Shown here in pieces: positions 1 through 54,863 of a stretch of 54,863 nucleotides of DNA; the stretch's first letter is position 1, and every line of letters begins with the position of its first letter. Source of the stretch: an uncultured Candidatus Berkelbacteria bacterium (GTDB lineage Bacteria > Patescibacteriota > UBA1384 > XYA2-FULL-43-10 > CAINNR01); assembly GCA_903851235.1 (NCBI GenBank), contig CAINNR010000028.1, positions 1-54,863 of the forward strand, written 5' to 3'. Under the pieces are notes generated by a model, which was not told the origin of the DNA, searched no databases, and saw only the letters and a program-made list of their open reading frames with translations. A program made the position numbers and the translations under genes.

Positions 1-140
1 ATACTTTTTAACCTTGTTTGAACCACATCTCTGACAGTTTTTTTAGCCATGATTACAATTCCTTGTAGATAAATACTTAATTATCATTTACAGGATATGA
101 TAATCAGCTACTTTTAGCAACAATTTTTTGCAATTAAGCC
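1..140 (-). mobile_element. Partial IS copy: inner end plus 5 end of a transposase gene, in inverted orientation relative to the copy at 54577..54863. Transposase ATG rc at 48-50, reading leftwards out of the window.
   Basis: 1..140 is the reverse complement of 54577..54716 with one substitution. Translation gives MAKK then, after a +1 shift in an A7/T7 run, NCQRCGSNKVKQYGKSLGKQRYTCLECGKFYQ, an InsA/IS1595-type zinc ribbon. Confidence 0.6.
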
Positions 141-2250
141 ACATATCCCAGTTTTTTGGTTTGGTTGTCAGCTCTTCATCGACTCGATCAGAGGTTATAG
201 GAATTTGAGAGAGATCATATAAGCCATTTTCCAACAATATCTGAGCCGGCGACATCGGCAGAAACGGTAGGAAAAAAGATGCACCGGCTGCTGAGAGCAT
301 TTCACCAAAATTGGAGCCAGCCCCCATTAATATGTATTTCAGAGTATTAACAAAAGTTCGGCGTCCCTCTTCGATACCAGAAACTATTACTCCGAGGTCT
401 TTTCGAAGTAAAACCACTTGGGCTGCATCCTTGGCCACATCAACGGCCGTATTAACGGAGATACCTACATCAGCACAATGGAGTGAAGGCACATCATTAA
501 CACCATCACCGATAAAACCGACAGTATGACCGTTATCTCTCAGTGTTTTTAATATTAAGAGTTTTTGTTCCGGCGATATGCGGGCAAAAACATTGATTTC
601 ATTTACAGTTTTTGCCAATTCAACGTGGGAAAGTCGTGCCAATTTTTCACCCGTAATTACTCCAGTGACTTTCATACCTACTTCTTTGCATACGGCTTCG
701 GCAACAATCTCATTGTCACCGGTTATTACCTTGATTCCAACACCCAGCAGATTAAAACGGTCAAGAGCCGACTTGACCGAGGCTTTAGGAATATCGGACA
801 GAATTATAAAACCCCTAAAAGTAAGATCTTTCAAATCATCAAAACTGTATCTGTCCTGCAACTTGATTTCCCGTGTTGCCAACGCAATGACCCGAAGTCC
901 TTGTTTGCTTAATTCAGTAAAACGCTCATTAACTTTTTTTTCAGCCAAATGGCTTTCCATGCATTTTTTGATAATCTTCTCTGGCGCTCCTTTGACAATC
1001 AGAAGTGGTTTTCCGCCCGGTTTTTTGACAACCGAATACATAACTTGAGTTTCAAAATTAAATGGCTCTTCAAAGATTTTCTGCCAAGCAGGAGCTTTTA
1101 TCTTCTCTTTAATGGCATGTTGACAGAGCGCCACATCAATTGAATTACCGGTAATCTTGTGGCGAACTAAAGCACTATTGCAAAGCAGAGCAAGTTCCAA
1201 AAGGTGCGCATCATCCTTTCCAGCCAAATCAAAGTGACCGATAACTTTGATTGATCCTTCAGTTAAAGTTCCGGTTTTGTCGGTGCAGAGAATATCCATA
1301 TTGCCTAAGTTTTCAATTGCCACAAGTTGTTTTGTGATCACCTCTTTCTTAGCCATTTTTTTTGCACCACGGGACAACCCGACTGTCACTATGATAGGTA
1401 AGAGTTCCGGCGTCAAGCCGACCGCAATAGCCAAAGAGAAAAGGAGAGAGGTAAGCCACTGGTGTCCCAAAAAGGCGTTAACAAGGAAAACAATGATTGT
1501 GAGAACAATAATTGTTTTAACAATTAATACGCCGAAACTGCCGAGTCCTTGCTGAAATTTTGTAACCGGCCTAGCGGTAGCCACACTCTTGGCAATTTTG
1601 CCAAACTCAGTGTCTTGCCCAATCGCAACAACCATACCAATTCCCGATCCTTCTGTTACTGCCGTTCCCATAAAAGCCAAATTGAGTAATTTAGTGATCT
1701 CCTGTTCTTTACGGAGTAGGGGGTCTGAATTTTTGAAGAGTGGAAGAGATTCGCCAGTAAGGGCAGACTCATTGATCTCTAAATTTTCCGTTTGGATCAA
1801 TCTTAAGTCGGCGGGCACAATACTTCCAGGTGAAAGTAAAACAATATCACCAAGAGTTAACTTGGATACCAGAATTTCTCTCTTATCGCCATTTCGCAGT
1901 ACTAAAGCGGTCAAAGATATTTTTGCCAAAAGCGCTTCGACTGTTTTTTCAGCTGAATATTCATTCCAAAACCCCAAAAAAAGACTAAGTATGACCATAC
2001 TGATTACATAGTATGCCGTGTTGTGGTCTCCAGTGAAAAAAGAAACAGCGGCAGCGACAGACAAAATTAGGGCAAGGGGATTGCCAGAAATCTGTCGCCA
2101 AAAGATCAGAAAAACAGTAGGCCGATAATCTTTTAATTGATTTCGGCCATATTGTTTATTTCTCTGAGTCGCTTCAGTCTCCGAGAGTCCTTCTAACCGA
2201 CTTTTACCTTTTTGTAGAACTTCCTCGTTAGCAATTGTCGAATATTCCAT
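88..2250 (-). CDS. P-type cation-transporting ATPase (P2-type, Ca2+/Mg2+-like). It is 3-truncated: only about 137 aa follow the GDGVNDVPSL motif, so TM7-10 are missing. The last ~17 codons and the stop lie inside the IS-derived repeat, so this is probably a pseudogene.
   Basis: Motifs DKTGTLT (phosphorylation site), TGDN and GDGVNDVPSL are present. The product is 720 aa against roughly 880-900 aa for intact homologues. The ORF runs into the terminal IS copy at 1..140. Confidence 0.75.
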   Translation of the reverse strand: MEYSTIANEEVLQKGKSRLEGLSETEATQRNKQYGRNQLKDYRPTVFLIFWRQISGNPLALILSVAAAVSFFTGDHNTAYYVISMVILSLFLGFWNEYSAEKTVEALLAKISLTALVLRNGDKREILVSKLTLGDIVLLSPGSIVPADLRLIQTENLEINESALTGESLPLFKNSDPLLRKEQEITKLLNLAFMGTAVTEGSGIGMVVAIGQDTEFGKIAKSVATARPVTKFQQGLGSFGVLIVKTIIVLTIIVFLVNAFLGHQWLTSLLFSLAIAVGLTPELLPIIVTVGLSRGAKKMAKKEVITKQLVAIENLGNMDILCTDKTGTLTEGSIKVIGHFDLAGKDDAHLLELALLCNSALVRHKITGNSIDVALCQHAIKEKIKAPAWQKIFEEPFNFETQVMYSVVKKPGGKPLLIVKGAPEKIIKKCMESHLAEKKVNERFTELSKQGLRVIALATREIKLQDRYSFDDLKDLTFRGFIILSDIPKASVKSALDRFNLLGVGIKVITGDNEIVAEAVCKEVGMKVTGVITGEKLARLSHVELAKTVNEINVFARISPEQKLLILKTLRDNGHTVGFIGDGVNDVPSLHCADVGISVNTAVDVAKDAAQVVLLRKDLGVIVSGIEEGRRTFVNTLKYILMGAGSNFGEMLSAAGASFFLPFLPMSPAQILLENGLYDLSQIPITSDRVDEELTTKPKNWDMWLNCKKLLLKVADYHIL

Positions 2251-2369
2251 GCCATAATTGTAACATTATAGAGATATTTTATAAAATAGATGTCCGTTCC
2301 AGATTTGGCCCCTAAACGGTCTAAAACCTTATCGCCAAAACATTCTTCCTAATAGCAACTCCCGAATAG

Positions 2370-3380
2370 TTAATTTAATTCAAGTCTTGAGAAAAAATAA
2401 AAGCCGGGGAAAAGTGGAAGCCAGTACAATAGGGCCCGAAAAGCCAGTGTGATAACAGCAGCCACAGGGACCTCCAGCCCAAATGAATGAAGGGTGGCTA
2501 TTATTACTGCCTCTGCCACACCAACACCTTGAGGTGTTATCGAAATAATCGTCAGAAGCAAACCTGCGACATAGCCAGCCAATATTGCCAAAATATTTAG
2601 TTGTCCGGTGAAAGCGAGAAATATAAAGGCAAATGTAGCAATATTTACTATGTGAGTAATGAAACCGCAATATAATGATGGTAATACTTTATCTTTATTA
2701 TTCTTTAAATCTTTCCCGATTACTTTAATAATATCGGCTATTACTGCCATATCAATGGAGCCCTGGCCTGCTAATTTCGCAATTAACCGAATCGGCCAGA
2801 GAAGTACTTTATTCTGTAACTTGCCGCCTGAACGGGTTATTCTTAAAACAAGCAAAGCCAAAACCAACAAGAAGACCGTCAGCAACATTAGGGGAATGAA
2901 AAGATAAGCTCTTGATTGATGAAAGGCAAAAAGGACTAAAATTATGATCCATGATAGTAAGACGAAGGAAAGAAGTTCAAACAGCAGAACAAGGGTAACG
3001 CTAATTCCGCTGCCTAAGGCAGATACATTTTTCTTTTTACCGTATTTTACAAAAATGGCAATCATGCCTAATGTAGAGATTGGGAGGGCTATATCTGTAA
3101 ACTTGGATGCAATGTAAATTGGAAGAATTTCCTTTCTACTTAGATCAATCTTAAAAATTTCAAAGATGTTTTCTGCAAAATATGCGTAAAACGGATAATA
3201 AAATAATTGGCACAAAACTGCCAGAATGATCCAGTACCATCTTCCAGCCGAAAGCACCTCCAAGATATGTTTGGTTTGGGCAAAGTATGTAACCGCAATC
3301 CAAAAAAATACTGCAAAGAAAATCCAAAAAAATAATTTACTAGTTGAAACTTTGTTTTTCATCACTTTTTTTCCAATCAT
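2370..3380 (-). CDS. Polytopic integral membrane protein (UPF0104 / lysyl-phosphatidylglycerol-synthase-TM-like flippase-type fold suspected).
   Basis: 336 aa with about 8 predicted TM helices and no soluble domain. The family call is tentative. Confidence 0.4.
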   Translation of the reverse strand: MIGKKVMKNKVSTSKLFFWIFFAVFFWIAVTYFAQTKHILEVLSAGRWYWIILAVLCQLFYYPFYAYFAENIFEIFKIDLSRKEILPIYIASKFTDIALPISTLGMIAIFVKYGKKKNVSALGSGISVTLVLLFELLSFVLLSWIIILVLFAFHQSRAYLFIPLMLLTVFLLVLALLVLRITRSGGKLQNKVLLWPIRLIAKLAGQGSIDMAVIADIIKVIGKDLKNNKDKVLPSLYCGFITHIVNIATFAFIFLAFTGQLNILAILAGYVAGLLLTIISITPQGVGVAEAVIIATLHSFGLEVPVAAVITLAFRALLYWLPLFPGFYFFSRLELN

Positions 3381-3669
3381 TAATTGCTATCGTTTATATT
3401 ATATCATTGATGAATATTAAGTTAACTACCTTTAACAGATCCAAAGAAAAAACGCCGTTTTCACAGAGTTTTTCTTGGCTTCATATAGTAGAGGATGTCA
3501 GAACCATTCATTGTTCAGCTATTGTATAATTTATGACATTGTGCCATCATGTAGGCAGCAATGCGCTTTATCCTTATTCGGTGGTGGCTGAGCTTGACGA
3601 TTTCGATCGTCTGGACAAATACTGCCACCGAAGCCAATAAGCTTGCGGGTGAGCAAACAAGGGGAGACA

Positions 3670-3957
3670 ATGATGTCCAAATCTTCTGGTTCGCGTAGCT
3701 GGAAAAACTCTTTGATTCTCTTAGTTAAGGTGATCGTGACGTTTGCTTGTGGAATAGCAACGCTGTTTATCCCTCTTTCCCTAAAAGACGAGGGTATGGT
3801 CTGGTATCAGTCCGGACAGGGTCCTAATGCACAAGAATGGGTTCTTGGTCAGGGTGCTACCCCAAATACCACCTGTCATTTGGTGTTGCTATTAGGGGTC
3901 CCTTTAGTGGTTGGTATTATCTTGTTCCTTATCATAAAACAACCTGAAGACGATTAG
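3670..3957 (+). CDS. Small membrane protein (2 TM), hypothetical.
   Basis: ATG preceded by AGGGGAGA RBS. Two hydrophobic helices. A terminator hairpin follows at 4022..4056. Confidence 0.4.
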   Translation: MMSKSSGSRSWKNSLILLVKVIVTFACGIATLFIPLSLKDEGMVWYQSGQGPNAQEWVLGQGATPNTTCHLVLLLGVPLVVGIILFLIIKQPEDD

Positions 3958-4021
3958 AAGAACCTTAACTGTTATGTGAATATCAATGAACTTTGGGTGC
4001 AATGTCTGCCAACGCCAACAA

Positions 4022-4056
4022 GGCCTCGAACATATTGTCCGAGGCCCTCTTTTATT
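4022..4056 (+). terminator. Rho-independent terminator.
   Basis: GGCCTCG ... CGAGGCC stem followed by CTCTTTTATT. Confidence 0.45.
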
Positions 4057-4262
4057 AAAAATGGTCCAGCCTTGTTTTCAGTGATTAAAAAAAGACTGCC
4101 TTCAGGCTAATCTTTTTTATTACGACTCTGGACAGTAGCAGAAGTTCGAACTGGAATTACATAACAAAATTGAAATATTGTTGGTTCGTTTGGTTTAATT
4201 TATTGAAAAAAATATAATGTTGCAATTCAGAACTTTTAGTTTAAATGCAAACGGCTACCGGG

Positions 4263-5117
4263 TTATTTATTTTGAACACTAAAATCAATATCCTTGGTAT
4301 AATCAATCGTTCCGGCATGAGTGCCAATTGCATGCTCTGATGCCCGAGAAATATATTCCTTAATTTTCTCTTGCCTTTGCTCAGTAGTTAAATTCTGATT
4401 ATTTATTGCTGGTCCGCCTATACAGCCGCCAGGACAGTTAAGAAAATCGAAGAATCGATGTATATTCTCCCCCGACTCCATTAGATCAAGTTCGGTTTTG
4501 AGATTATTAATACTATCAACAATCATCACCTCTCCTTTTTGAAAAAGCCTCTGAATGTGGGATGTCCCAGCAAGTCCGCCAGAAACAGGATAGATTTTTG
4601 TGTATTCTCTTACAAATGAATCAAAGAAATATTTGCGGTTAAAATCCTCCTCTTTAATCTCCTGATTTTCAAATAATAATTTGAGCTCCTTTAATGTGAT
4701 AACGCCATCTATAAACGCTGGGTATTTTGGCGCCTCTATTTTTTGTTTAGCAAAACAGGGCGATATAAAAAATACTTTATAGTCGGGGTGATGTTTTTTA
4801 TTAATCTTTGCCATTGCAACCATCGGAGAAACGACGGGAATTAAATATTTAACCAAATCGGGATATGAGTTTTCGATCATCGTGACGCAAATGGGGCAGG
4901 GGGAAGAAATGAAATACCTCTGTTTTGGATGATTCTTAATATATTCTACATAATGCCAGTTTACGATTCGGGCGCCAAAAGTTAATTCTGTCACTTTATT
5001 AAATCCCAATTCACGAAGCATTCCAATAATGGCTGGATACTTAAAATCAAGTATAAAAGTCGGTGCCAACATGGCAATTGATTTATTGTCTCTGACTAAA
5101 CTAATTTGATCTTCCAT
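4263..5117 (-). CDS. [FeFe]-hydrogenase large-subunit C-terminal (H-cluster) domain homologue. It is a stand-alone minimal form with no ferredoxin-like F-cluster domains, and its N-terminus is shorter than a full H-domain.
   Basis: Aligns motif-by-motif with the Clostridium CpI H-domain. L1 TSCCPGW corresponds to SSPCPIC, with the first Cys replaced by Pro and the cluster Cys kept. L2 MPCxxKxxE corresponds to SPCFAKQKIE. L3 MACxGGCxxGGGQP corresponds to NCPGGCIGGP. Flanking segments also match: LRELGFNKV, SPMVAMAKI, IDGVITLKEL. Confidence 0.7.
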   Translation of the reverse strand: MEDQISLVRDNKSIAMLAPTFILDFKYPAIIGMLRELGFNKVTELTFGARIVNWHYVEYIKNHPKQRYFISSPCPICVTMIENSYPDLVKYLIPVVSPMVAMAKINKKHHPDYKVFFISPCFAKQKIEAPKYPAFIDGVITLKELKLLFENQEIKEEDFNRKYFFDSFVREYTKIYPVSGGLAGTSHIQRLFQKGEVMIVDSINNLKTELDLMESGENIHRFFDFLNCPGGCIGGPAINNQNLTTEQRQEKIKEYISRASEHAIGTHAGTIDYTKDIDFSVQNK

Positions 5118-5127
5118 GTTTGTATTG

Positions 5128-5161
5128 TATCAAAATAAATAGACTGGTTCGAGTCCAGTCT
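5128..5161 (-). terminator. Rho-independent terminator downstream of the GC-rich phosphatase gene.
   Basis: AGACTGG TTCGAGT CCAGTCT hairpin followed on the minus strand by a T-rich tract (rc of caaaataaat). Confidence 0.4.
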
Positions 5162-5328
5162 GGGTAATACAAAAAATATCTAATCATGGACTAGATATTC
5201 TCTTGGTTCCCTGTAGTAGAGAGAGTTAGAATTTTATTTACCCTTTCGTCGTAATTTTCAACGACTCATCAGAACACTTATGTGTTTAGGGGAAGGACGA
5301 ACAGTTGATGCCCGTCCCCTTGTTTGGC

Positions 5329-6114
5329 CTAATACAGCCGCTGATTGTAACGGCTGAGTTGCAACCGCCCGTTATCGCCCACACTCGGATCGCCCTCAAA
5401 GAGTGTCAGCCCGCAGTTGATGGGCTTCGCCACGTTGTCGTAACGGATGAACTCATGCTGGTCCCAGCGCATGACGGCAGCCATGAATGAGAGGAGTGTG
5501 AGATGGTGGGACACGACCATGACACGCCGTTCCGAGTAGTCACGCACTAGCGTACCGATGAAGGAGCGCAAGCGCTCGATAACATCCGGCACGCTTTCTC
5601 CTTGAGGGTAACGATAGTAGTAGGGACCCTCCATGTCCCGAAGCATCTTCTGCTCGGGGTGGAAGGTTTGGAAAACCCTCCAGTCGTTGTAGACAAGAGC
5701 CAGGCCGTGTTCTTGCTCTCGCAGGCGCACTTCTTCGATCACCGGTACGTCCTTGAGCGCGGGCCACCCCTGGTAGAAACCCTCGAGTGTCAGCTTTGTT
5801 CGCCGGTGGGGCGAGACGAAGATGAATTCAGGCGGCTCCAATGTTTCCTTCAGTCCGTAGCCGACAGAGTTGGATTGCCTATGGCCCTCATCGGAGAGAT
5901 CGGTGTCGTGATCACCCACACCCAATGAGTATTTATCCCAGATTATCTTGGCCAGCCTTCTCGTCTCCTCGCTAAGAAAGTCGGCCTCGAATGCAGCGAC
6001 GAAGGCGGTATAGTCTGGGTCTCTGTCCTTGAGGATCTTCAAGTTGTTGTACGCCGACATAGCGTGGCGAAGCCACGCTAGATACTTGGGCCACTTCATA
6101 ACTCTTCTCCTCAA
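5329..6114 (-). CDS. Histidine phosphatase superfamily protein (phosphoglycerate-mutase-like branch), encoded in an anomalously GC-rich segment (~57%).
   Basis: LSDEGHRQS and SPHRRTKLT motifs near the N-terminus and a VSHHLTL motif later. GC is far above the flanking ~38-40%. The shadow ORFs on the opposite strand are typical of high-GC DNA. Confidence 0.6.
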   Translation of the reverse strand: MRRRVMKWPKYLAWLRHAMSAYNNLKILKDRDPDYTAFVAAFEADFLSEETRRLAKIIWDKYSLGVGDHDTDLSDEGHRQSNSVGYGLKETLEPPEFIFVSPHRRTKLTLEGFYQGWPALKDVPVIEEVRLREQEHGLALVYNDWRVFQTFHPEQKMLRDMEGPYYYRYPQGESVPDVIERLRSFIGTLVRDYSERRVMVVSHHLTLLSFMAAVMRWDQHEFIRYDNVAKPINCGLTLFEGDPSVGDNGRLQLSRYNQRLY

Positions 6115-6577
6115 TCGAATATTCTCAGTATCACTGATCTGTTCTTATAATATCATATTTTGGTTATTTGTAAAGGGTTTAGGGTAATGTTTCAATAATT
6201 TTGAAACACTTCACCAGTTCGAACGCCTACTCTCGATATAATAAAAAAGCAAGAACTAGACTTGCTTTTTTATTTGGCTCCCCTTGGCTGATACTTTCCA
6301 AAACAAATATTATCACGAAATAATGGAACTTAGTAATGAATTGAAGATTTTGAAAAATGAATTCAACTTTGCAAATGTCTCAATATAAATTATTGAACTC
6401 CAATTATTTTTTAACCTCTCTCATTAAGTATTTTTTCAATTCTTCTAAATAACGGGTAAATTTCTGCCGATCTTTGGGTCGTTCTGTTTTGTTACCGAGT
6501 TCTTTCCTACGCTCAATCAAATCCAAGTGGATACTTTGCTTTTCTAAAATAAAAAAATAAACAAGTCTAAAACCGCC

Positions 6578-7279: not shown

Positions 7280-7735
7280 AGTAATTTTTCCTATGGGTTA
7301 AACTGAACAAGTTTTCCATCTTTAACTATCTTCGGAGAATTACACCTGAACAATATGACAAATATGTAATTAAGGCCAAAGACAAACAATTCGATTTAAA
7401 CTCGCAATTAAAAGATCATATTAAAACAGACAAAACATTCTTATTGACCGTTTCTACTATTATGGACCTGGAAAATCGAGCACCGGAACTATATAAAAAT
7501 TTGAAAGATGATCAAAAACGAAGGCTTGTTGACTTTCTACTTTCGAACTTACGACTGAAAGGAAAAAAGTTTCTCTGGGATTACAAAAAGTCTTTCAACA
7601 CTATAGCTCTTTGTGCTACTCGTCAAGATTGACTCCCAATACTGAGTTTATCAGGAATTTATTGGAAGATTTTGCTTATTGCGCCCGGATGAAACAACTG
7701 ATAATATCTCAATTAATAATTTTGGTTAGTCATCT

Positions 7736-9228: not shown

Positions 9229-9486
9229 CTTATTTCATATAATAGTGCTAATTTGTAAAAATTTCAACAAAAAAAGTGACCAACAGAAATTAATCACTTT
9301 TTAATGGCTCCCTGGGCTGGACATATGAACCGGTTTTAAAAACCCACGGTTTTTAATATTTTCCTACATGGAAAACTCTCGCCCACAGGGTCACCTTCGG
9401 AAGATTTCTCGACCCCTTCCGCGGTTCTTGTCCAACCATCAAAAACAAACGAAAAAAGCCGGAGAAAAATCTCCCGCTCTTTTCGT

Positions 9487-9561
9487 TGGCTCCCCGGGTC
9501 CGACTCGAACGGACAACATCTTCGTTAACAGCGAAGCGCTCTGCCATTGAGCTACCGGGGA
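9487..9561 (-). tRNA. tRNA-Asn (anticodon GTT).
   Basis: Cloverleaf on the minus strand: acceptor TCCCCGG/CCGGGGA, D-arm GCTCAATGGCAGAGC, anticodon stem CTTCG/CGAAG with loop CTGTTAA, T-arm GTCCG TTCGAGT CGGAC, discriminator G plus CCA. Confidence 0.85.
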
Positions 9562-48121: not shown

Positions 48122-48905
48122 GATGGTTAAAATGAAATCATTGCATAATATTTTATCCGTTTGTTTGCTTACTATGATGGTGGGATTATTTTTGTTGTTA
48201 CCTGCATCGTTTGTCCAAGCGGCAAATATTAACGAAGTGGCGCCAGGAGAACTTTTACCGATTTCGGTTAAAATATCAAACTTTGGTGCCAGCAGTAGAG
48301 TGGACATCGTGATCAAATATTCGATTCTTAATAACGCCGGAGAAGAAATAACTTCTACCACTGAAACTGCGGCGGTAGAGACGACGGCAAGTTTTATCAA
48401 GTCGGTTCAAATTCCTTTCGCCACGGCGCCGGGAGTTTATACCGCTAAGACCTCCGTTACATATCCGGGTCACGTGGATCCTGCCACCACCCAATTTTCT
48501 TTTACCGTCGAGCGAAAAATTCTCGGAGTTTTCCAAAGTGATTTTTTTCTTTACGGCGGCATTGCGGTCATCGTCAGTATTTTTCTGGTCTTGTTCGGTC
48601 ATATTTTGGTCAAGCGTCGTCGCACCTCAAGATTCAGTCCGTGTGATTACTCAGAAATTTCCGACTGCGATCGCACCTTCTATGAAATTTTGAGCGACAC
48701 GATTATGCAAATGCGCGGACGCGTCGGTGATGATGCGCTTACCATTGCGGCAAATATCCCCGGACTTTCAATTGACAGAAAAACCGGTCGTATCCTTTCT
48801 TTAACTGAGTCGCCGGCGAAGGTTATTGCTGTTTTAGTATCGGAATATGAAAAACGGCTGGGTAAAAAAGTCAGTTTCTCATTAAGAAGAGAGAAAGTAG
48901 ATTAA
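48114..48905 (+). CDS. Hypothetical exported/membrane protein (signal peptide plus mid TM); its 3 end is duplicated downstream.
   Basis: Signal LLTMMVGLFLLLPASFVQA. TM GGIAVIVSIFLVLFGHILV. An 8-nt overlap with the upstream gene. Confidence 0.4.
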   Translation: MSRMVKMKSLHNILSVCLLTMMVGLFLLLPASFVQAANINEVAPGELLPISVKISNFGASSRVDIVIKYSILNNAGEEITSTTETAAVETTASFIKSVQIPFATAPGVYTAKTSVTYPGHVDPATTQFSFTVERKILGVFQSDFFLYGGIAVIVSIFLVLFGHILVKRRRTSRFSPCDYSEISDCDRTFYEILSDTIMQMRGRVGDDALTIAANIPGLSIDRKTGRILSLTESPAKVIAVLVSEYEKRLGKKVSFSLRREKVD

Positions 48906-49125
48906 ATTTTGACGACTTCGAAGAGGTTTATCGGGTATCACCTTTTAGACTGGTTTTATAAAACCAAAAATTGACAAGAAATAAGCTCTGTAATAATATA
49001 AAATTATAATCGATCATAAATTGGAAAAGCTGTCGAAACTCAAGCAAGTTTTTAGAGGGAGTCGGCTTATCATTTCAAACTAGGAAGAATTAGATTGATA
49101 ATCTTATTAACATAAGGAGAATGTT

Positions 49126-49548
49126 ATGGAAAAACTAGAAACCCCAAAGCCAAAGAAGAGCTCAGTGCAGAGCAAGACAATTTTGGTGGTGGAGGACGAC
49201 GAAGACCTTAACAGAGCGATTGCCGATATGCTTCGCCGAGAAAATTTCCTATCCTTTGAAGCAAAAAACGGCAAAGAAGGGGTGGAGATTGCCCTGACAA
49301 AACACCCCGACCTTATTTTGCTTGATCTTCTGATGCCAGTAATGGGCGGTCTGACCGCTCTTAAAAATATTCGTGCCGATGCTTGGGGGAAAAAAGTCCC
49401 TGTCATCATTTTGACGAATTTCAATCAGGCCGATGATCGAATAACGACAGATTATGTGACCTATCAACCGGAAGAATATTTAGTCAAATCGGAGGTGAAG
49501 CTTCGTGACGTGATTAATAAAATCAAAGATATACTAAAAGTCCAATAA
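49126..49548 (+). CDS. Single-domain response regulator (CheY-like REC), copy 1.
   Basis: KTILVVEDDEDL, DLILLDLLMPVMGG (phospho-acceptor Asp), VIILTN and the K of EYLVKS. AAGGAGA RBS. Confidence 0.75.
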   Translation: MEKLETPKPKKSSVQSKTILVVEDDEDLNRAIADMLRRENFLSFEAKNGKEGVEIALTKHPDLILLDLLMPVMGGLTALKNIRADAWGKKVPVIILTNFNQADDRITTDYVTYQPEEYLVKSEVKLRDVINKIKDILKVQ

Positions 49549-49639
49549 TGACAGAAAAAAAAGCCCAAAATAATTGCCAGCAAGCAGAAGTGATAGTTAC
49601 GCAAAGTCAAAAAGTAATTTAGCTGGTTGAGGCCAAAAA

Positions 49640-49723
49640 AGATTATTGCCGCTTGATATCAGAATATGAAAAGCGGCTGGGTAAAGAAGTTGTTTTCTCA
49701 TTTAGAAGAGAGAAAGTAAATTA
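49640..49723 (+). pseudogene. Remnant of a duplicated 3 end of gene 48114..48905.
   Basis: 49640-49723 is about 85% identical to 48822-48905 (…SEYEKRLGKEVVFSFRREKVN* versus …SEYEKRLGKKVSFSLRREKVD*). It has no start codon or upstream gene body. Confidence 0.55.
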
Positions 49724-49745
49724 AACAATAAATTGGAGGAACACA

Positions 49746-50183
49746 ATGGGAACAGAAAAAACCTCAGTATCAGAGCAGAGCTCTCCAAGCGCCGTGCGGG
49801 TGGTACGGGATAAAACAATTCTGGTGGTGGAAGACGAGAAAGATCTCCGCAAAGCAATCACCGACGTCCTTCGTCACAATAATTTCCTGCCATTGGAAGC
49901 AAGTAACGGCGAAGAGGCCATAGAGGTGGCGTTGGCAAAACACCCCGATCTTATTTTGCTTGATCTTTTAATGCCGGTGATGGGCGGAATGGCGGCTTTG
50001 AAGAAAATCCGCGCCGATGTTTGGGGAACGAATGTTCCGGTTATTATACTGACCAACTTAAGTCCAGACAAAGAACAGTTGGTGAAAGATGTGGTGACAA
50101 ATAACCCGATGGAGTATTTAGTCAAATCAGACTGGAAACTTCACGATGTTATTAAAAAAATAAAAAAGGTACTAAAAAAATAA
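49746..50183 (+). CDS. Single-domain response regulator (CheY-like REC), copy 2, a tandem paralogue.
   Basis: About 60% aa identity to copy 1 with the same motif set. GGAGGAA RBS. Confidence 0.75.
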   Translation: MGTEKTSVSEQSSPSAVRVVRDKTILVVEDEKDLRKAITDVLRHNNFLPLEASNGEEAIEVALAKHPDLILLDLLMPVMGGMAALKKIRADVWGTNVPVIILTNLSPDKEQLVKDVVTNNPMEYLVKSDWKLHDVIKKIKKVLKK

Positions 50184-51017: not shown

Positions 51018-52760
51018 CTAAAATTTACTGTCGGCCGGACAGGCGGGGTTATCTTTGCCAGTTAGTCTGGTGCTAATGTCAAAGTAGGCGAAAGCTTGCT
51101 CTCTGCCGTTGGTATAGGCGTAACTGCACTCCGGCAAATATGGCAGATCGGTTTTGAAATAAGTATTCAAAACTAAGCGGAAAATATTGACCGAATTTCC
51201 GGCAACGGCAAAATCGTTTTTATTCGCCGCCGGAATATTGTAGGCGGCCAAAATTCCGTATTTCATTTTTAAGTCAGTGTCGGACCATTTGGTCATGTCG
51301 CCGGTATCAAGCTCATCGCCGACTGAGGCGTAATTAAAGTTTTCGCCGTTCAATTCCATCGGGTACGGACCTTCATCGGATTGAATAATCACAACTGCTT
51401 GGTTGTTGCTGTTTTTTCTTACCTCCTGAATCAAATTTTTCATTTGGCTGTTGATAAATTCAACTTGACCGATATATTTTTCCTTTACCGGTTGACCGAG
51501 ATTGTTATCACCGGGAGTTGTTGAAAGCGAGCCGTCGGAGTTGAAATAATATGGATCGTGTGGAACCAGAATATGGGCGAAAACAAATTTTCCGCCAGCA
51601 GGCTCTGCAGCGATATTATTCAGTTGATTTAATTTATATAAAGTCGCATCACTTTCGCCGATTGAACTATATGAAAGAATTTTTAATTTCCCAATTGTAA
51701 GCCCGCGACTGACAAATTGCCAATATAGACTTCGAGTTAAATTATCTTTTGAAAAATTGTTTAAAGTAAAAGTCTGATTTAATATCGTTAATCGTCCCTC
51801 GGGTTGATAATTGTTATCAGCCAACGGCGCTTGATTACTGGCTTCATACCAAGTTCCAAGTTGGTCGTAAGTGTAGCCGAGCGATTTTAATTTTTCAATT
51901 ACCGAAGCGTAGCGAATCGAATCGTGGTAAGGTTCGGTTGTCTGCATCGATGAGCTGGAGAACTTTTTTACCATATCGGAATCATAATCGGCGTTCATTG
52001 TTGAAGCGATCGACATTGTGGTGAACGGGTAATTGGCAACGGCGTTCGGATCAATGGAGAAATTATTTGCTGATAAAAATTTGATAAAATCGGAGTTGTC
52101 ATAATTAAATTGGCTAGAAAGAACACTTTGACTGGTATAACGGTCGAGAACAATGTAGTATATATCCGGCTTGGAGTTTGTCGTTGTGGCGACAGCGGAA
52201 ATTTTTGCCGGTCGATAAAAAAATTGCGGCCATTCAACAACTATGGCGCGGGCGACTGGGTAAAGTTGCAAAATGAAGGCAACAGAGATGACAATAATAA
52301 CCGCTTTGGCAAAAACTTCGATCGGCCATTTTTTTCTTGTTGTTAGCCGATCGATCCAACGGACAAAAAGAAAAATGACTCCGATAATTACTAAAATAAA
52401 AATCAGGCTATAGATTATACTTGGGATTTTTGACGAGTTACCAAGAGGAATTATCGCTTGAAAGATCGGTTTGATTTCGGTTAACCGACTGTCAAAATCG
52501 GGACCGAAAACCAGAGTGCCGATGACGATAACTATGAGTCCGGCGAGTTTATTTTTCTTAAAACTTTTAAAAAATACCAAAGCCAAAACCAGTGAAGTAG
52601 CGAAGCAAATAATCAATGGTAGCACCAGATCGACGAGTGTTACTTGATAGCGATTTTCCGTCCAAGCAGCGAAAACCGGCAGTGTCGACAACATAAAAGC
52701 CGCCAGCATCAGTGCCAGATAACTGAAGAAATCGGATTTTACCAGTTTTTTAAAATTCAC
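51018..52760 (-). CDS. Polytopic membrane protein with a C-terminal extracytoplasmic sulfatase-like (alkaline-phosphatase superfamily) domain. It may be an LtaS / phosphoglycerol- or phosphoethanolamine-transferase family member.
   Basis: About 5 N-terminal TM helices followed by PDIYYIVLDRYTSQ (the metal-binding block of the AP superfamily). Confidence 0.5.
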   Translation of the reverse strand: MNFKKLVKSDFFSYLALMLAAFMLSTLPVFAAWTENRYQVTLVDLVLPLIICFATSLVLALVFFKSFKKNKLAGLIVIVIGTLVFGPDFDSRLTEIKPIFQAIIPLGNSSKIPSIIYSLIFILVIIGVIFLFVRWIDRLTTRKKWPIEVFAKAVIIVISVAFILQLYPVARAIVVEWPQFFYRPAKISAVATTTNSKPDIYYIVLDRYTSQSVLSSQFNYDNSDFIKFLSANNFSIDPNAVANYPFTTMSIASTMNADYDSDMVKKFSSSSMQTTEPYHDSIRYASVIEKLKSLGYTYDQLGTWYEASNQAPLADNNYQPEGRLTILNQTFTLNNFSKDNLTRSLYWQFVSRGLTIGKLKILSYSSIGESDATLYKLNQLNNIAAEPAGGKFVFAHILVPHDPYYFNSDGSLSTTPGDNNLGQPVKEKYIGQVEFINSQMKNLIQEVRKNSNNQAVVIIQSDEGPYPMELNGENFNYASVGDELDTGDMTKWSDTDLKMKYGILAAYNIPAANKNDFAVAGNSVNIFRLVLNTYFKTDLPYLPECSYAYTNGREQAFAYFDISTRLTGKDNPACPADSKF

Positions 52761-54205
52761 CGGTTTTTCCGCTCCATCAAATATAGAGTTCGTTTACTGC
52801 CTGCTATCGCAGAGGTTTTTTTGATTTTGAAATATTGTGAAAAGATTAGTTCAAACATTTTTTGGTTGTAATCGGGGAAAATATCTTGGCGATTGGCCAA
52901 AAGTCGTTTAGTGTTGGAATCGTTTTTGGGCACAAATTCAATGATTAAATATTTTGTTTGGTTGGCAAAAAGTTCGGCGATTTTATTAAGCGGTAAATTA
53001 TTGGTGATCGCCAAGTGATGGATAAAAGCCAAACAAAGTGTCAGATCAAACTTGGCGCGAACCCAAAAGGAATCTCGTTCCCTGTTTTCCCAGCCGATCG
53101 CCGGACTTGGATTGGTTAAATCCAAAATTAAGGGCAAAAGAAATTCATCAGCATCGCTTTTTGCTCGCAAGTAGGCGTGCTCGACGGCGATTGGATCAAT
53201 GTCGCTGGCAACCGTCTGGATTTTTTTCTTCGATCCGAGTCGACCGAAATGACTGTCGTTGGCTCCGGCATCCCAGAGAGTTTCCGGTTGGATTTTTGTA
53301 ATCCATGAGTCAATAATTTCTTCCTTAGTTTTAAGTCCGGCGGATGAATAATTGGTTTTGTTATAATAATCGCCCCAAGTCGTAAGTTGTTTCGGCAATT
53401 TCAAACCGCCTACAGTTGACTTCAAACTGTCAATAATCCCCAGAAGTTGATTTTTGCCGATTTTAACTTTGGCAATTCTTTCACCATCGGCTGCATGCGA
53501 TAGCTGACTTTTGGCGTGAAGAAAAATGTGGCTACCAAGTCCGAGAGAAAAACGAGCTTTGACCGGTAAAAGTTTGGCTGTTAAATCGAGCGGTAGACCA
53601 TCCAAATAAATTTGCGATAATGTTCCAAATCGCAAATCGACGCAAGTCATCAGCGCCAATGGCGCTAAAAAGTGTTGACAAAATTGGCGATAAGCAATCC
53701 ATGGCTTACTTTCCCGATACTTTTCAAATGATAACGTGTCAATTAAAATCGGTTTACTATTCACAAATTGAATGTTGTAAGCTGAGGCGTCCTTTAAACT
53801 CATACCGAATTTCATCGCCGTTGACTGAATTTCCAAAGTCAGAAGCGCAGCATCTTTTAGTTGGCTGAAACACCACTCGTACGGGTAGCTGATGAAAGAA
53901 ATTTGCTCCGGTTTGATGATTTTATAACTCTTAGGCCCGCTATTTTTATTATCAATCTCTTTGTGGTCGACGAGATATTTTTTTCCAACCAACTCGGCGA
54001 ATAATCCGGAGCTTTGGAGAAAATCATAATCTTTTTTATAGATCAAATTTATTTGGCGAAAGTATTGATTATTTTTTTTGAAAACCGTTCCACTTGGATC
54101 GCGAAAAGATGCCGCCACTGCCTTTGAATTATCACTTGTCATTTTTACCTTTGGGTTTTTTGTCACCGGAGCGCAAATTTTTGAAATAGTTGACAATTCG
54201 GCCAC
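52757..54205 (-). CDS. Putative SAM-dependent methyltransferase-like protein with a conserved N-terminal FRDPSG motif.
   Basis: C-terminal DIDPIAVE and LTLCLAFIHHL resemble methyltransferase motifs II/III. A 4-nt overlap with the downstream gene. The family assignment is tentative. Confidence 0.4.
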   Translation of the reverse strand: MAELSTISKICAPVTKNPKVKMTSDNSKAVAASFRDPSGTVFKKNNQYFRQINLIYKKDYDFLQSSGLFAELVGKKYLVDHKEIDNKNSGPKSYKIIKPEQISFISYPYEWCFSQLKDAALLTLEIQSTAMKFGMSLKDASAYNIQFVNSKPILIDTLSFEKYRESKPWIAYRQFCQHFLAPLALMTCVDLRFGTLSQIYLDGLPLDLTAKLLPVKARFSLGLGSHIFLHAKSQLSHAADGERIAKVKIGKNQLLGIIDSLKSTVGGLKLPKQLTTWGDYYNKTNYSSAGLKTKEEIIDSWITKIQPETLWDAGANDSHFGRLGSKKKIQTVASDIDPIAVEHAYLRAKSDADEFLLPLILDLTNPSPAIGWENRERDSFWVRAKFDLTLCLAFIHHLAITNNLPLNKIAELFANQTKYLIIEFVPKNDSNTKRLLANRQDIFPDYNQKMFELIFSQYFKIKKTSAIAGSKRTLYLMERKNR

Positions 54206-54398
54206 TAAAAACTTTTAGAGTATAGGTTGCGCCGAAAATAATTCCGATCGCTACCTGAATGATGTAGCTACCAGTGCCGGGATCCAAATATGCATGAGCA
54301 AGATGAAGCGGCGAGAGAACAATCGGCAGCAAAAGCCAGACACCGAAACTTAGCCACTTTGATTTCCTATTTCTTAGCAAAACAAAAAACTTGGACAT
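54132..54398 (-). CDS. Small membrane protein (2 TM) with a Lys-rich tail.
   Basis: Hydrophobic helices WLSFGVWLLLPIVL and IIQVAIGIIFGA. Overlaps the start region of the next gene. Confidence 0.35.
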   Translation of the reverse strand: MSKFFVLLRNRKSKWLSFGVWLLLPIVLSPLHLAHAYLDPGTGSYIIQVAIGIIFGATYTLKVFSGRIVNYFKNLRSGDKKPKGKNDK

Positions 54399-54576
54399 TT
54401 ATTCTATCCTTAATATTGATATTCCATCATAGCAAATTTTATTTGGTTTGACAAAATAATTGTACAACCGAAAACTGAAATTAGGCTGAATAGTTGGAAA
54501 GAATATTTTTGAAATTAAAAATCTGGTTAGGCCGTATATTCTAAAACGTGGTGCCAAAAAACCCAACGTGTTTTGG

Positions 54577-54863
54577 GGCTTAATTGCAAAAAATTGTTGC
54601 TAAAAGTAGCTGATTATCATATCCTGTAAATGATAATTAAGTATTTATCTACAAGGAATTGTAATCATGGCTAAAAAAACTGTCAGAGATGTGGTTCAAA
54701 CAAGGTTAAACAGTATGGCAAGAGTTTAGGTAAACAAAGATACACCTGCTTGGAATGTGGTAAGTTTTACCAATCAAAAAACCGCCCTGAAAAGCTGGAG
54801 CGGAAAATCTACGAAGAGTACGCCAATGATCGCAAGACATTAAAAGTTTTAGCTAGAGAATAC
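54577..54863 (+). mobile_element. Partial IS copy: inner end plus the 5 part of an IS1/IS1595-like transposase gene (ATG at 54667) that continues beyond the window. A +1 frame change is needed at the A7 run (54673-54679).
   Basis: Inverted-repeat partner of 1..140. Translation gives MAKK(T/N)CQRCGSNKVKQYGKSLGKQRYTCLECGKFYQSKNRPEKLERKIYEEYANDRKTLKVLAREY, a zinc ribbon plus HTH N-terminus typical of InsA/ISXO2-like transposases. Confidence 0.6.

What the first reader, a model, noticed from the sequence alone, without database searches (positions are those of the whole stretch)
1..54863. The whole window is bracketed by inverted copies of an IS-like element whose transposase gene carries an identical A7 frameshift; the left copy truncates a P-type ATPase
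Positions 1-140 are the reverse complement of 54577-54716 with one mismatch. Each copy contains the IS inner end and the start of an InsA/ISXO2-type zinc-ribbon transposase (CQRCG…GKQRYTCLECGKFYQ) pointing out of the window. In both copies the ATG frame (MAKK) and the zinc-ribbon frame are offset by one nucleotide at an A7 homopolymer, so the gene reads through only with an eighth A. This could be programmed frameshifting or slippage as in IS1, a shared inactivating mutation, or a homopolymer sequencing error. The left copy supplies the last 17 codons and the stop of the P-type ATPase, which consequently lacks TM7-10. Inverted IS copies 54 kb apart form a composite-transposon-like unit, or a segment that could be inverted by homologous recombination. 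They could also be an assembly artefact at the contig ends.
Basis: seen in the sequence. Interest (0 to 1): 0.6.

Follow-up and report, generated by a model that had tools for sequence, protein, structure and literature searches.

The report
Insertion sequence with built-in start-proximal frameshift
Both ends of this contig from a tiny uncultured (Patescibacteria) bacterium stop inside copies of a 1-kb jumping gene whose transposase needs a one-base frame slip on a run of seven A's just after its start codon; every one of about 80 diverged relatives checked needs such a slip too, so it looks like a built-in throttle rather than an error or a dead gene.

Summary
Window 1-140 is the reverse complement of 54577-54716 with one mismatch (position 6 / 54711). 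Both copies carry ATG-GCT-A7 one base out of frame with a 4-Cys zinc ribbon. The left copy truncates an MgtA-type ATPase and supplies its last 17 codons and stop.

- **Family:** the element is not InsA/ISXO2. Its closest full-length relatives are 1,033-bp IS elements whose 306-aa transposase is an 'IS256 family transposase, variant Zn-binding type' (NF048019, 300-323 bits).
- **Frameshift:** the A7 offset is neither a sequencing error nor a shared inactivating mutation. In 79 related loci (40-84% aa identity; CPR, Campylobacterota, Deltaproteobacteria, Nitrospirota and others) none has its ATG in frame with the zinc ribbon. Thirty-six need -1 and 43 need +1, always at an A5-A8 run at codons 3-5, and the roughly 300-codon ORF after it is nearly always intact. 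This supports a conserved start-proximal recoding site. Whether it acts by transcriptional slippage or ribosomal frameshifting is unresolved.
- **Composite transposon:** not supported. The 54 kb between the copies is housekeeping chromosome, and the contig simply breaks at a repeat. Independent assemblies show the same junction.

The parts
54577..54863 (+). Right IS copy: the first 287 nt of the element, reading out of the window (left terminal inverted repeat, 5' leader, start of the transposase gene)
   Evidence: It shares its boundary at 54577 with the left copy. It is collinear with complete 1,033-bp elements in L001-L004.
54577..54600 (+). Terminal inverted repeat (IRL) GGCTTAATTGCAAAAAATTGTTGC
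   Evidence: It occurs only twice in the window. In L001-L004 it matches an imperfect inverted copy at the other IS end...GCAACAAGAATTTGATATTAAGCC.
54650..54663 (+). Small hairpin TACAA-GGAA-TTGTA with the Shine-Dalgarno-like AAGGA (54653-54657) in its loop and stem
   Evidence: RNAalifold predicts 5 pairs on 14 diverged elements. The pairs are almost invariant with no covariation, so the structure is unproven.
54667..54729 (+). Frame-0 short ORF from the ATG (MAKKTVRDVVQTRLNSMARV*), the product made if no slip occurs
   Evidence: Read from the sequence. Length and sequence are not conserved in relatives: 6-91 aa, median 14.
54673..54679 (+). A7 run: proposed recoding (slip) site at codons 3-5. 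A -1 slip or one extra A in the mRNA gives MAKKNCQRCG...
   Evidence: T+A7 is invariant in 14 elements whose surrounding columns are on average 70% identical. An A5-A8 run sits at this place in 79 of 79 classified relatives, none of them in frame.
54675..54863 (+). Transposase N-terminus in the shifted frame: 4-Cys zinc ribbon plus the start of a helix-turn-helix-like region (KNCQRCGSNKVKQYGKSLGKQRYTCLECGKFYQSKNRPEKLERKIYEEYANDRKTLKVLAREY), cut by the window end
   Evidence: NCBIfam scores: NF048019 35.6 bits (fragment only), NF048018 34.5 bits, NF050000 34.1 bits. It is 84% and 70% identical to the N-termini of complete 306-aa transposases in L001 and L002.
1..140 (-). Left IS copy: the first 140 nt of the element (IRL at 140-117, ATG at 50-48, A7 at 44-38), reading out of the window
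   Evidence: Reverse complement of 54577-54716 with one mismatch at position 6, which gives Lys here against Gln in the right copy.
88..2250 (-). mgtA-type P-type ATPase truncated by the left IS copy. Codons 1-703 are ATPase; the last 17 codons and the stop (88-140) are IS sequence
   Evidence: TIGR01524 at 632 bits, profile positions 16-731 of 867. Aligns to MgtA 8uy7 residues 48-761. The identical chimeric 720-aa product is on contigs from two other assemblies.

Best explanation
**What the window is.** It is a chromosomal contig of a Berkelbacteria-like Patescibacteria (CPR) bacterium. Each end stops inside a copy of a multi-copy IS of about 1.03 kb. The IS belongs to the group NCBI calls 'IS256 family transposase, variant Zn-binding type'. 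By homology with close relatives it has ~24-bp imperfect terminal inverted repeats starting GGCTTAAT, 8-bp target duplications and a single transposase of about 306 aa. One copy inserted into mgtA and the other into an intergenic region. They lie in inverted orientation, and the assembler could not pass through the repeat.

**What the A7 is.** The 'frameshift' is a designed feature of this IS lineage. Translation starts at a good SD-ATG, reads Met-X-Lys-Lys on a poly-A run, and is then one base out of frame with the zinc-ribbon and DDE transposase ORF. Full-length transposase is made only when a slip occurs on the A-run. That slip is either RNA polymerase adding or dropping an A (transcriptional realignment) or tRNA-Lys re-pairing by one base on the ribosome. 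Most initiations yield only a short, non-conserved peptide, so transposase and transposition stay low.

**Shown here.**
- The anatomy of the start region.
- Its conservation across the relatives sampled, with no in-frame member among them.
- Intact downstream ORFs.
- Multi-copy identical out-of-frame elements.

**Inferred.**
- That the slip actually happens.
- At which level it happens.
- That its role is attenuation.
For: **1. Relatives share the arrangement.** The four closest relatives, from JGI metagenomes (84% and 70% aa identity), all have ATGGCT-A7-(C/T)-TGY with the same offset, followed by an uninterrupted ORF giving a 306-aa transposase. The C/T difference after the run is synonymous (AAC/AAT, Asn) only in the shifted frame.

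**2. No in-frame member.** In the 79 loci with an identifiable upstream ATG or GTG (75 of the 80 GTDB genome loci, the four metagenome loci and the window's right copy; 40-84% identity), none has that start in frame with Cys1. Thirty-six need -1 and 43 need +1.
- The run is A7 in 47, A6 in 15, A5 in 10 and A8 in 7.
- The ORF after Cys1 runs about 299-323 codons to its stop in 70 of the 79. Five are cut short by a stop and four, the window's copy among them, run off the sequence held.
- An SD-like GGAG/AGGA precedes the out-of-frame ATG in most.

**3. A8 members are also out of frame.** L009, L010, L013 and others still need a shift, so the state is not simply 'one A missing'.

**4. Persistence through diversification.** An NJ tree shows at least 10 switches between the -1 and +1 classes. 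The window's clade is uniformly -1 across members that are 55-84% identical to the L002 transposase.

**5. Nucleotide-level conservation.** T+A7 and the Cys1 TG are invariant in 14 elements whose neighbouring columns average 70% identity.

**6. Identical out-of-frame copies at several sites in one genome.**
- L002-L004 carry one identical element with different flanks. These come from three separate metagenome assemblies, so a single genome is inferred.
- Three copies in the complete MAG chromosome OY781066.1.
- Two copies in the Sulfurovum sp. CS9 complete genome.
- Two copies in a Syntrophorhabdus MAG.
This implies that out-of-frame elements transpose.

**7. Finished isolate genomes show it.**
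- Nitratifractor salsuginis Nitsa_0013 spans 943 nt for 313 aa, so the deposited CDS skips one base after AAAAAA.
- In Sulfurimonas, PGAP resorted to an ATC start right before Cys1, while an out-of-frame ATG-A7 lies upstream.

**8. Gene callers miss the N-terminus.** Most of the 120 best of 2,794 database homologues are called N-terminally truncated at about 252-255 aa.

**9. No homopolymer damage elsewhere.** No other A/T or G/C homopolymer in the 54.8-kb window splits an ORF.

**10. Repeat-induced contig ends.**
- Two other assemblies are 100% identical to the window and also end inside the left IS copy, at positions 87 and 83.
- The left end holds exactly 140 nt of IS, which equals k-1 for k=141. 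This last point is inference.
Against: - There is no direct evidence (RNA, peptide or reporter) that the slip occurs.
- A7 is at the short end of runs known to give efficient transcriptional slippage, and some members have only A5-A6.
- No conserved stimulatory RNA structure was found downstream. The only conserved hairpin lies upstream around the SD and shows no covariation.
- The phase of the run is not the classical X_XXY_YYZ of IS1 or IS3 (NNT AAA AAA ACN in the -1 class).
- According to the Atkins 2016 review (PMC5009743), +1 ribosomal frameshifting has not been documented for any IS.
- The loci are phylogenetically related, so 0 of 79 is not 79 independent trials.
- Only the best 80 of 300 genome hits were examined.
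- More distant family members (P0090, P0094, P0133) appear to be in frame.
- The window holds only 287 and 140 nt of the element. Its full length, right end and target duplications are inferred from relatives.
Confidence: 0.75

Rival explanations
1. DNA-level phase switch. The A-run is a mutational ON/OFF switch worked by slipped-strand mispairing at replication. Elements sit OFF, and rare A(n±1) revertants express transposase and jump.
For: Homopolymers are indel-prone. The tree implies at least 10 one-base changes of class in this region, so indels here do occur and become fixed.
Against: None of the 79 loci classified is in the ON state. This includes recently multiplied identical copies, which should be ON if ON copies are the ones that transpose, because transposases generally act preferentially in cis. 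A8 and A6 variants are also OFF.
Confidence: 0.13
2. Dead elements. The offset is a shared inactivating mutation, the copies are pseudogenes, and they are mobilised, if at all, in trans by an intact master copy.
For: Frameshifted transposase pseudogenes are very common. A few relatives are clearly degraded (L056, L058, L065, L072, L076 have short ORFs).
Against: ORFs of roughly 300 codons stay open in dozens of lineages that have diverged to 40-70% aa identity. The disruption is always at the same site and nowhere else. No in-frame master copy was seen in any genome sampled, including complete genomes.
Confidence: 0.05
3. Technical artefact. The A7 is a homopolymer sequencing or consensus error, and the inverted ends are an assembler-made duplication or hairpin.
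For: The window ends coincide with the repeat. The two ends could in principle derive from one collapsed read pool.
Against: - The same offset is found in many independent projects, assemblers and finished isolate genomes.
- No other homopolymer-split ORF exists in the window.
- The two copies differ by a SNP and have different unique flanks.
- The identical mgtA::IS junction occurs in two other assemblies.
Confidence: 0.02
4. Composite transposon or invertible segment. The two inverted IS copies and the 54 kb between them form a mobile unit, or a segment that flips by homologous recombination.
For: Two copies of ~1 kb each, at least 99% identical over the 140 nt both ends share, lie in inverted orientation as in Tn5 or Tn10. 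Recombination between them would invert the segment.
Against: - The content is core chromosome: FtsH, LepA, MurJ, a ClpB-like Clp/Hsp100 AAA+ ATPase, DivIC, five tRNAs and ABC transporters.
- The outer IS ends and any target duplication lie outside the window.
- Any contig bounded by a multi-copy repeat looks like this.
- Other assemblies of the same region also break in the IS.
Confidence: 0.05
5. Non-canonical initiation. The zinc-ribbon frame is translated from its own non-AUG start, so no frameshift is needed.
For: PGAP annotated an ATC start just before Cys1 in Sulfurimonas. L089 and L072 have an in-frame GTG.
Against: In the window and most relatives the shifted frame reads TAA AAA AAY TGY or TGA GTA AAA AAA TGY. 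No ATG, GTG or TTG, and in these two arrangements no ATT, ATC or CTG either, lies between the stop and Cys1. The conserved SD serves the out-of-frame ATG.
Confidence: 0.02

Closest known systems
IS256 family, Zn-binding variant (NCBIfam NF048019; distant to IS1249, NF033544)
   Same: The frame-corrected transposases of the closest complete relatives score 300-323 bits against a cut-off of 150. They have the N-terminal 4-Cys domain (NF048018), one ORF, short imperfect terminal inverted repeats and 8-bp target duplications.
   Different: At 1,033 bp the element is smaller than classical IS256 (about 1.3 kb, from my own knowledge). Classical IS256 transposase (NF033543) matches only weakly, at about 26 bits. 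The start-proximal frame offset is not part of any description of the family that I could find.
IS1 (InsA / InsAB', -1 frameshift at A6C)
   Same: An N-terminal zinc ribbon of the IS1/IS1595 type (NF050000, 34 bits; Pfam Zn_ribbon_InsA is sub-threshold). An A-rich slip site followed by C. Low-level transposase production by a -1 shift.
   Different: - IS1's shift joins two substantial ORFs, InsA (a DNA-binding regulator) and InsB'. Here the upstream 'ORF' is only Met-X-Lys-Lys, and the zinc ribbon lies downstream of the shift.
- The IS1 transposase model scores 30 bits against a cut-off of 100.
- The catalytic domain is of IS256/Mutator type.
- The phase of the A-run differs.
- Forty-three of the 79 loci classified need +1.
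IS elements using programmed transcriptional realignment (Baranov 2005, PMC1088944; IS1447 +1 slippage, PMC6211511; Roseiflexus IS, reviewed in PMC5009743)
   Same: A homopolymer run is conserved among homologues with a disrupted ORF. Both +1 and -1 outcomes are possible. Transposase level is set by slippage efficiency.
   Different: The described cases use runs of about 9 A/T, or a hairpin-assisted T5C5, placed between the orfA and orfB domains. Here the run is mostly A7, sits at codons 3-5, and has no orfA product and no adjacent strong hairpin.
ISMich2 group of Mutator-like prokaryotic transposases (Guerillot 2014, PMC3942029)
   Same: A Mutator/IS256-related transposase with a conserved -1 frameshift, interpreted by the authors as programmed.
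   Different: There the transposase is split into two real ORFs. No relationship in sequence or in site position was shown here.
Composite transposons (Tn5 / Tn10 type)
   Same: Two inverted copies of one IS bracket a DNA segment.
   Different: The segment is 54 kb of housekeeping genes. The outer ends, target duplication and mobility could not be seen. The arrangement is explained by contig breakage at repeats.

Membership tests
IS256 family, Zn-binding variant (NF048019) | Transposase scores above the curated cut-off (150 bits) of the equivalog model | tested here: inconclusive
   The window holds only 63-66 residues, which score 35.6 bits and are the best whole-protein family hit. Complete relatives that are 84% and 70% identical over that stretch score 300.6 and 323.4 bits.
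IS256 family, Zn-binding variant (NF048019) | N-terminal 4-Cys zinc-binding domain (NF048018, cut-off 27) | tested here: met
   34.5 bits on residues 5-33 of the frame-corrected N-terminus.
IS256 family, Zn-binding variant (NF048019) | IS architecture: terminal inverted repeats, single transposase gene, 8-9-bp target duplication | tested here: inconclusive
   Only the left end of the element lies in the window. In relatives the element is 1,033 bp with ~24-bp imperfect inverted repeats. 8-bp duplications were read by eye at L059 (TCAAATGT), L085 (TCAAGTCG) and L002/L003 (ATAAATTC).
IS1 family | IS1 transposase model NF033558 at or above 100 bits, with InsA and InsB' ORFs joined by a -1 shift at A6C | tested here: not met
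   The fragment scores 30.5 bits, and complete relatives score 32-34 bits. There is no InsA-sized upstream ORF.
IS1595 / ISXO2 | Zinc ribbon plus an IS1595-type DDE domain | tested here: not met
   Only the shared zinc domain NF050000 matches, at 34 bits. No IS1595-family model appears among the NCBIfam matches of the closest complete relatives, and Pfam matched nothing beyond the zinc ribbon in the more distant family members P0090-P0142. Instead the closest relatives match NF048019 and, weakly, IS256 and ISH6.
Programmed recoding site (frameshift or transcriptional realignment) in an IS | The slip-prone motif and the frame offset are conserved among diverged homologues while the downstream ORF stays intact | tested here: met
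   0 of 79 in frame. A5-A8 run at codons 3-5. The ORF after Cys1 runs ~299-323 codons to its stop in 70 of 79. T+A7 is invariant in 14 elements that average 70% column identity.
Programmed recoding site (frameshift or transcriptional realignment) in an IS | Stimulatory element: downstream structure, upstream SD at the right spacing, or nascent-RNA hairpin | tested here: inconclusive
   The leader plus start folds no better than shuffles (z = -0.36). Only a 5-bp invariant hairpin around the SD was found, with no covariation.
Programmed recoding site (frameshift or transcriptional realignment) in an IS | Demonstrated trans-frame product or edited transcript | not testable with these tools
   This needs RNA-seq or amplicon sequencing, mass spectrometry or reporter assays.
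Composite transposon | The whole unit is flanked by one target-site duplication and is found as a unit in other contexts, with accessory cargo | tested here: not met
   - The cargo is housekeeping genes.
- The outer ends are outside the window.
- Other assemblies of the same locus are identical and also break in the IS.
- Target duplication and mobility are not testable here.
Mg2+-translocating P-type ATPase (MgtA, TIGR01524) | Score at or above 610.75 bits with full-length coverage, including the C-terminal TM7-10 | tested here: not met
   The score passes at 632.4 bits, but the profile is covered only over positions 16-731 of 867, and MgtA 8uy7 is matched only to residue 761 of 904. This is a truncated member, probably non-functional.

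The most novel reading that the evidence does not exclude
A large subclade of the IS256-family Zn-binding-variant elements is spread across CPR/Patescibacteria, Campylobacterota, Deltaproteobacteria, Nitrospirota, Chloroflexota, Marinimicrobia and others. It has 2,794 database homologues at E below 1e-20. Its members obligatorily express their transposase through a slip on a short poly-A run at codons 3-5. Lineages move between '-1' and '+1' versions but none was found in frame. This would be an undescribed start-proximal form of recoding that acts purely as an expression throttle, with no OrfA product. It is invisible to frameshift finders that need two sizeable ORFs, and it causes systematic mis-annotation (truncated calls, ATC starts, pseudogenes).
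Probability: 0.55. Interest if true: 0.7.

Novelty: new variant of a known kind. Interest (0 to 1): 0.62.

Why it matters
- **Recoding biology.** Recoding in IS elements is textbook for IS1 and IS3, where it fuses a DNA-binding OrfA to a catalytic OrfB. A conserved slip site only three codons after the start, with both +1 and -1 versions on the same A-run, would be a different design: a pure attenuator. It would also be a clean natural system for asking whether short A-runs near initiation slip at the polymerase or at the ribosome.
- **Annotation.** Many transposase genes in metagenome-assembled genomes are currently called truncated, given odd start codons or marked as pseudogenes, and a specific rule could correct them.
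- **This contig.** The inverted repeats are an ordinary repeat-induced contig boundary, not a mobile 54-kb unit. mgtA in this CPR bacterium is disrupted by an insertion that recurs in several samples.

Tried and rejected
- **Searches with the 66-aa corrected N-terminus.**
  - Genome contigs: 161 pattern matches, none confirmed.
  - The search for homologous proteins: no candidates.
  - Viral contigs: none.
- **Exact DNA pattern across ATG-A7/8 in metagenome contigs:** no match.
- **HMMER against 1.84 billion representatives.** The top hits were eukaryotic C2H2 zinc-finger arrays, a spurious resemblance of GKQRYxCxECGKxF to the C2H2 linker. Only the single-stretch N-terminal hits (P0090, P0094, P0133 and others) were useful.
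- **Eleven-sequence alignment A1:** too diverse for the search for related loci. A2 worked.
- **Script looking for ORF pairs joined by a one-base indel at any homopolymer in the window:** nothing found. This argues against a systematic homopolymer error.
- **RNA structure.**
  - Folding of the IS leader and start: not better than shuffles.
  - Consensus folding of 14 elements: only a 5-bp hairpin, with no downstream stimulator.
- **Exact look-up of the protein next to the right IS copy (52757-54205):** not on record.
- **Literature:** six searches and four papers read in part found no description of this arrangement. The library is limited to open-access text, and ISfinder could not be consulted.
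- **Rejected ideas.**
  - rRNA as the cause of the 55% GC block at 38-42 kb: Rfam found only tRNAs.
  - InsA/ISXO2 membership.
  - An assembler hairpin.

Full report
**1. The observation**

The window's two ends are inverted copies of one sequence. The repeat finder reports arms 1-143 and 54574-54716 at 99%. A direct comparison shows the real shared block is 1-140 against 54577-54716 with one mismatch, at window position 6 versus 54711. The 24-nt end GGCTTAATTGCAAAAAATTGTTGC occurs only at these two places, against 0.02 expected by chance.

In the right copy the ATG is at 54667-54669 and seven A's follow at 54673-54679. Frame 0 gives a 20-aa peptide. The frame holding CQRCG...GKQRYTCLECGKFYQ is one base off and opens directly after a TAA, with no possible start codon before the first Cys. 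The right copy runs 287 nt to the window end.

ORF 88-2250 (-) is an MgtA-type ATPase. It scores 632 bits on TIGR01524, covering profile positions 16-731 of 867, and aligns to E. coli MgtA 8uy7 residues 48-761 of 904. Its last 17 codons and stop lie in the IS.

**2. What the element is**

The corrected 66-aa N-terminus matches zinc-ribbon domains shared by IS1, IS1595 and a variant of IS256. Its best whole-protein match is NF048019, 'IS256 family transposase, variant Zn-binding type'. Direct searches for close relatives in genomes, proteins and viral contigs failed.

A protein-guided scan of JGI metagenomes found four loci:
- L001 is 84% identical over the N-terminus.
- L002-L004 are 70% identical and carry one identical element in three different flanks.

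These contain the whole element. It is 1,033 bp, starts GGCTTAATTGCAAAA(A/T)ATTGTTGC, ends ...GATATTAAGCC, and encodes a 306-aa transposase once the frame is corrected. Those transposases score 300 and 323 bits on NF048019, against a cut-off of 150. They score only about 26 bits on classical IS256 and 32-34 bits on IS1.

So the element belongs to the IS256-family Zn-binding-variant group, not to InsA/ISXO2. 8-bp target duplications can be read at relatives: TCAAATGT in Sulfurovum CS9, TCAAGTCG in Nitratifractor, and ATAAATTC across L002 and L003.

**3. The A7 is a family feature**

All four metagenome relatives have ATGGCT-A7-(C/T)-TGY with the same offset. The C/T change after the run is synonymous (Asn) only in the shifted frame.

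A profile-guided scan of GTDB species representatives found 300 relatives, and I examined the best 80 (40-68% identity to L002). Their hosts include:
- many CPR lineages (Berkelbacteria, Collierbacteria, Levybacteria, Falkowbacteria, Dojkabacteria, Saccharibacteria and others);
- Syntrophorhabdus and other Deltaproteobacteria;
- Nitrospirota;
- Sulfurovum and Sulfurimonas;
- Chloroflexota, Marinimicrobia and Cloacimonadota.

Together with the metagenome loci and the window, 79 loci have an identifiable upstream ATG (GTG in one, L012). Their state is as follows:

| Feature | Result |
|---|---|
| ATG in frame with the zinc ribbon | 0 of 79 |
| Need -1 (ATG-to-Cys1 distance 3n+2) | 36 |
| Need +1 (distance 3n+1) | 43 |
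| Run length | A7 in 47, A6 in 15, A5 in 10, A8 in 7 |
| Position of the run | begins at codon 3 in most |
| ORF after Cys1 | ~299-323 codons to its stop in 70 of 79; five cut short by a stop, four run off the sequence held |
| Frame-0 peptide | 6-91 aa, median 14, not conserved |

An SD-like GGAG/AGGA precedes the out-of-frame ATG in most. A8 members are also out of frame, so the state is not 'A7 that should be A8'.

On an NJ tree the two classes interconvert at least 10 times. The window's clade is uniformly -1 across members that are 55-84% identical to the L002 transposase. In an alignment of 14 -1-class elements, T+A7 and the Cys1 TG are invariant while the mean column identity is 70%.

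**4. Checks on apparent exceptions**

Among the 120 best of 2,794 homologues of the Sulfurovum element, most gene calls are N-terminally truncated at about 252-255 aa. I inspected at the DNA level three of the few calls that reach the N-terminus:
- **Nitsa_0013** (finished genome CP002452) spans 943 nt for 313 aa. The deposited CDS skips the G in ATG GCT TGT AAA AAA (G) TGC, so it is a +1-class element.
- **The Sulfurimonas PGAP protein** starts at an ATC just before Cys1, while ATGAGCTGT-A7 lies upstream out of frame, so it is -1 class.
- **P0222** uses an in-frame GTG five codons before Cys1 and also has the out-of-frame ATG-A7.

More distant family members found by HMMER (P0090, P0094, P0133, which are 37-40% identical to the L002 transposase) appear to be in frame. 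The offset therefore characterises a large subclade, not necessarily the whole family.

**5. Mechanism**

The data fit a conserved recoding site. A ribosome starts at the SD-ATG and reads Met-X-Lys-Lys. It reaches the transposase frame only if one base is gained or lost on the A-run. That can happen in two ways:
- in the transcript, by RNA polymerase realignment;
- on the ribosome, by tRNA-Lys re-pairing. In the -1 class this is AAA to AAA one base back, with next codon AAY. In the +1 class it is one base forward, with next codon TGY.

Both routes give Met-X-Lys-Lys-(Asn)-Cys.... The data do not discriminate between them.
- Two points lean towards transcription. Both directions coexist on the same run, and the Atkins 2016 review states that no IS is known to use +1 ribosomal frameshifting, the +1 cases being transcriptional (PMC5009743).
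- Two points lean against efficient polymerase slippage. The runs are short (A5-A7) and there is no adjacent hairpin.

No downstream stimulatory structure was detected. Recently multiplied, identical copies are all out of frame: L002-L004, three in OY781066.1, two in Sulfurovum CS9 and two in Syntrophorhabdus. This argues that out-of-frame elements are the active ones, and it argues against a purely DNA-level ON/OFF switch or dead pseudogenes. The likely role is to keep transposase very low. That role is inferred.

**6. The bracketing**

The host is a Patescibacteria bacterium. Its LepA is 77-84% identical to Berkelbacteria and Patescibacteria MAG proteins. The 54 kb carries FtsH, LepA, MurJ, a ClpB-like Clp/Hsp100 AAA+ ATPase, DivIC, an L,D-transpeptidase, ABC and MFS transporters and five tRNAs. 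That is core chromosome, not transposon cargo.

Two other public assemblies (ERZ18625568 and ERZ27313089) contain contigs 100% identical to the window. They also stop inside the left IS copy, at window positions 87 and 83. So the mgtA::IS junction is real and recurrent, and assemblers consistently break in this repeat.

The left end holds exactly 140 nt of IS, which is k-1 for k=141. That is a typical de Bruijn contig end at a repeat, though this is inference. Under that assumption every k-mer covering the left A7 also includes unique flank, so the two A7 observations are independent. The SNP at position 6 (Lys versus Gln) also marks them as distinct copies.

No other homopolymer in the window splits an ORF. 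A composite transposon is therefore unsupported. Inversion by recombination is possible but untested.

**7. Comparison and novelty**

Programmed frameshifting and transcriptional realignment in IS elements are well known. Examples are IS1 at A6C, IS3 at A6G, A9 runs, IS1447 with +1 slippage, and the Mutator-like ISMich2 group.

Three things differ here:
- The site lies at codons 3-5, so there is no OrfA product and the DNA-binding zinc ribbon lies after the shift.
- The family is the IS256 Zn-binding variant.
- The +1 and -1 versions alternate, with no in-frame member in the sample.

I found no description of this in the searchable literature. ISfinder could not be consulted. At least one GenBank curator silently joined the frames in Nitsa_0013. 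I rate it a new variant of a known kind.

**8. Verdict**

- **Observation:** confirmed.
- **Interpretation:** partly supported.
- **Family and recoding site:** the most interesting outcome is the family-wide start-proximal recoding site. My confidence is about 0.9 that the offset is a selected feature, and about 0.75 that it is expressed by slippage or frameshifting.
- **Bracketing:** the 'bracketing' itself is ordinary.

Noticed in passing
window 38606-41551 (-), with tRNA-Lys at 38373-38447: A 981-aa homologue of the eukaryotic major vault protein. Pfam MVP_shoulder scores 79 bits, and residues 369-894 align to rat and human MVP 274-790 at E = 1.6e-19. It lies in a 55% GC block in a ~42% GC genome, directly beside a tRNA-Lys gene, which looks like a horizontally acquired island in a CPR bacterium.
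   Followed up: partly
window 26097-26171 (-): A tRNA-Ile with anticodon TAT (UAU), which is unusual for bacteria; they normally read AUA with a lysidine-modified CAT tRNA. Two tandem tRNA-Met(CAT) genes lie at 29712-29924.
   Followed up: no
window 54650-54663 (+) and the same place in L001-L028: An invariant 5-bp inverted repeat TACAA..TTGTA encloses the Shine-Dalgarno-like sequence just upstream of the transposase ATG, about 10 nt before the A-run. It is conserved in 14 diverged elements but shows no covariation. It could occlude the SD or affect slippage.
   Followed up: partly
L085 (CP002452.1 14138-15880) and L088 (CP093396.1): Public annotations handle this transposase inconsistently. 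Nitsa_0013 is deposited as a 313-aa product from a 943-nt range, so one base is skipped. PGAP gives the Sulfurimonas copy an ATC start. Most metagenome gene calls are truncated to about 252-255 aa.
   Followed up: yes
window 45020-48121 (+): A 1,033-aa protein built from about ten diverged 147-nt (49-aa) repeats with a conserved ...GTPYVAY.. motif. It gives weak beta-propeller, BNR and AIR9-Ig hits and is probably a secreted or surface repeat protein.
   Followed up: no
window 43624-44517 (+): An ice-binding-like domain protein (PF11999, 83 bits) lies next to the repeat protein.
   Followed up: no
window 48838-50183: Tandem diverged duplication. 49174-49473 and 49812-50111 are 70% identical, and 48838-48906 and 49657-49725 are 88% identical. 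The region includes a response-regulator receiver gene at 49126-49548; the adjacent ORF 49746-50183, which overlaps the second repeat copy, was not scanned, so calling it a paralogue is inference.
   Followed up: no
window ~15050: Gene orientation switches from mostly the minus strand (88-15052) to mostly the plus strand (15062-37960). This coincides with the minimum of cumulative GC skew. The pattern resembles a replication origin, but the intergenic gap is only 9 bp and no dnaA gene is nearby.
   Followed up: no
window 4263-5117 (-): A 284-aa protein consisting only of the C-terminal domain of the [FeFe]-hydrogenase large subunit (PF02906, 133 bits), in a CPR genome.
   Followed up: no
L002 left flank; L003 and L004 right flanks: The three metagenome contigs carrying the identical IS pair up different flanks. 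The 8 bp ATAAATTC ends L002's left flank and begins the right flank of L003 and L004. This suggests that assemblers joined flanks of different IS copies across the 1-kb repeat, giving chimeric contigs.
   Followed up: partly
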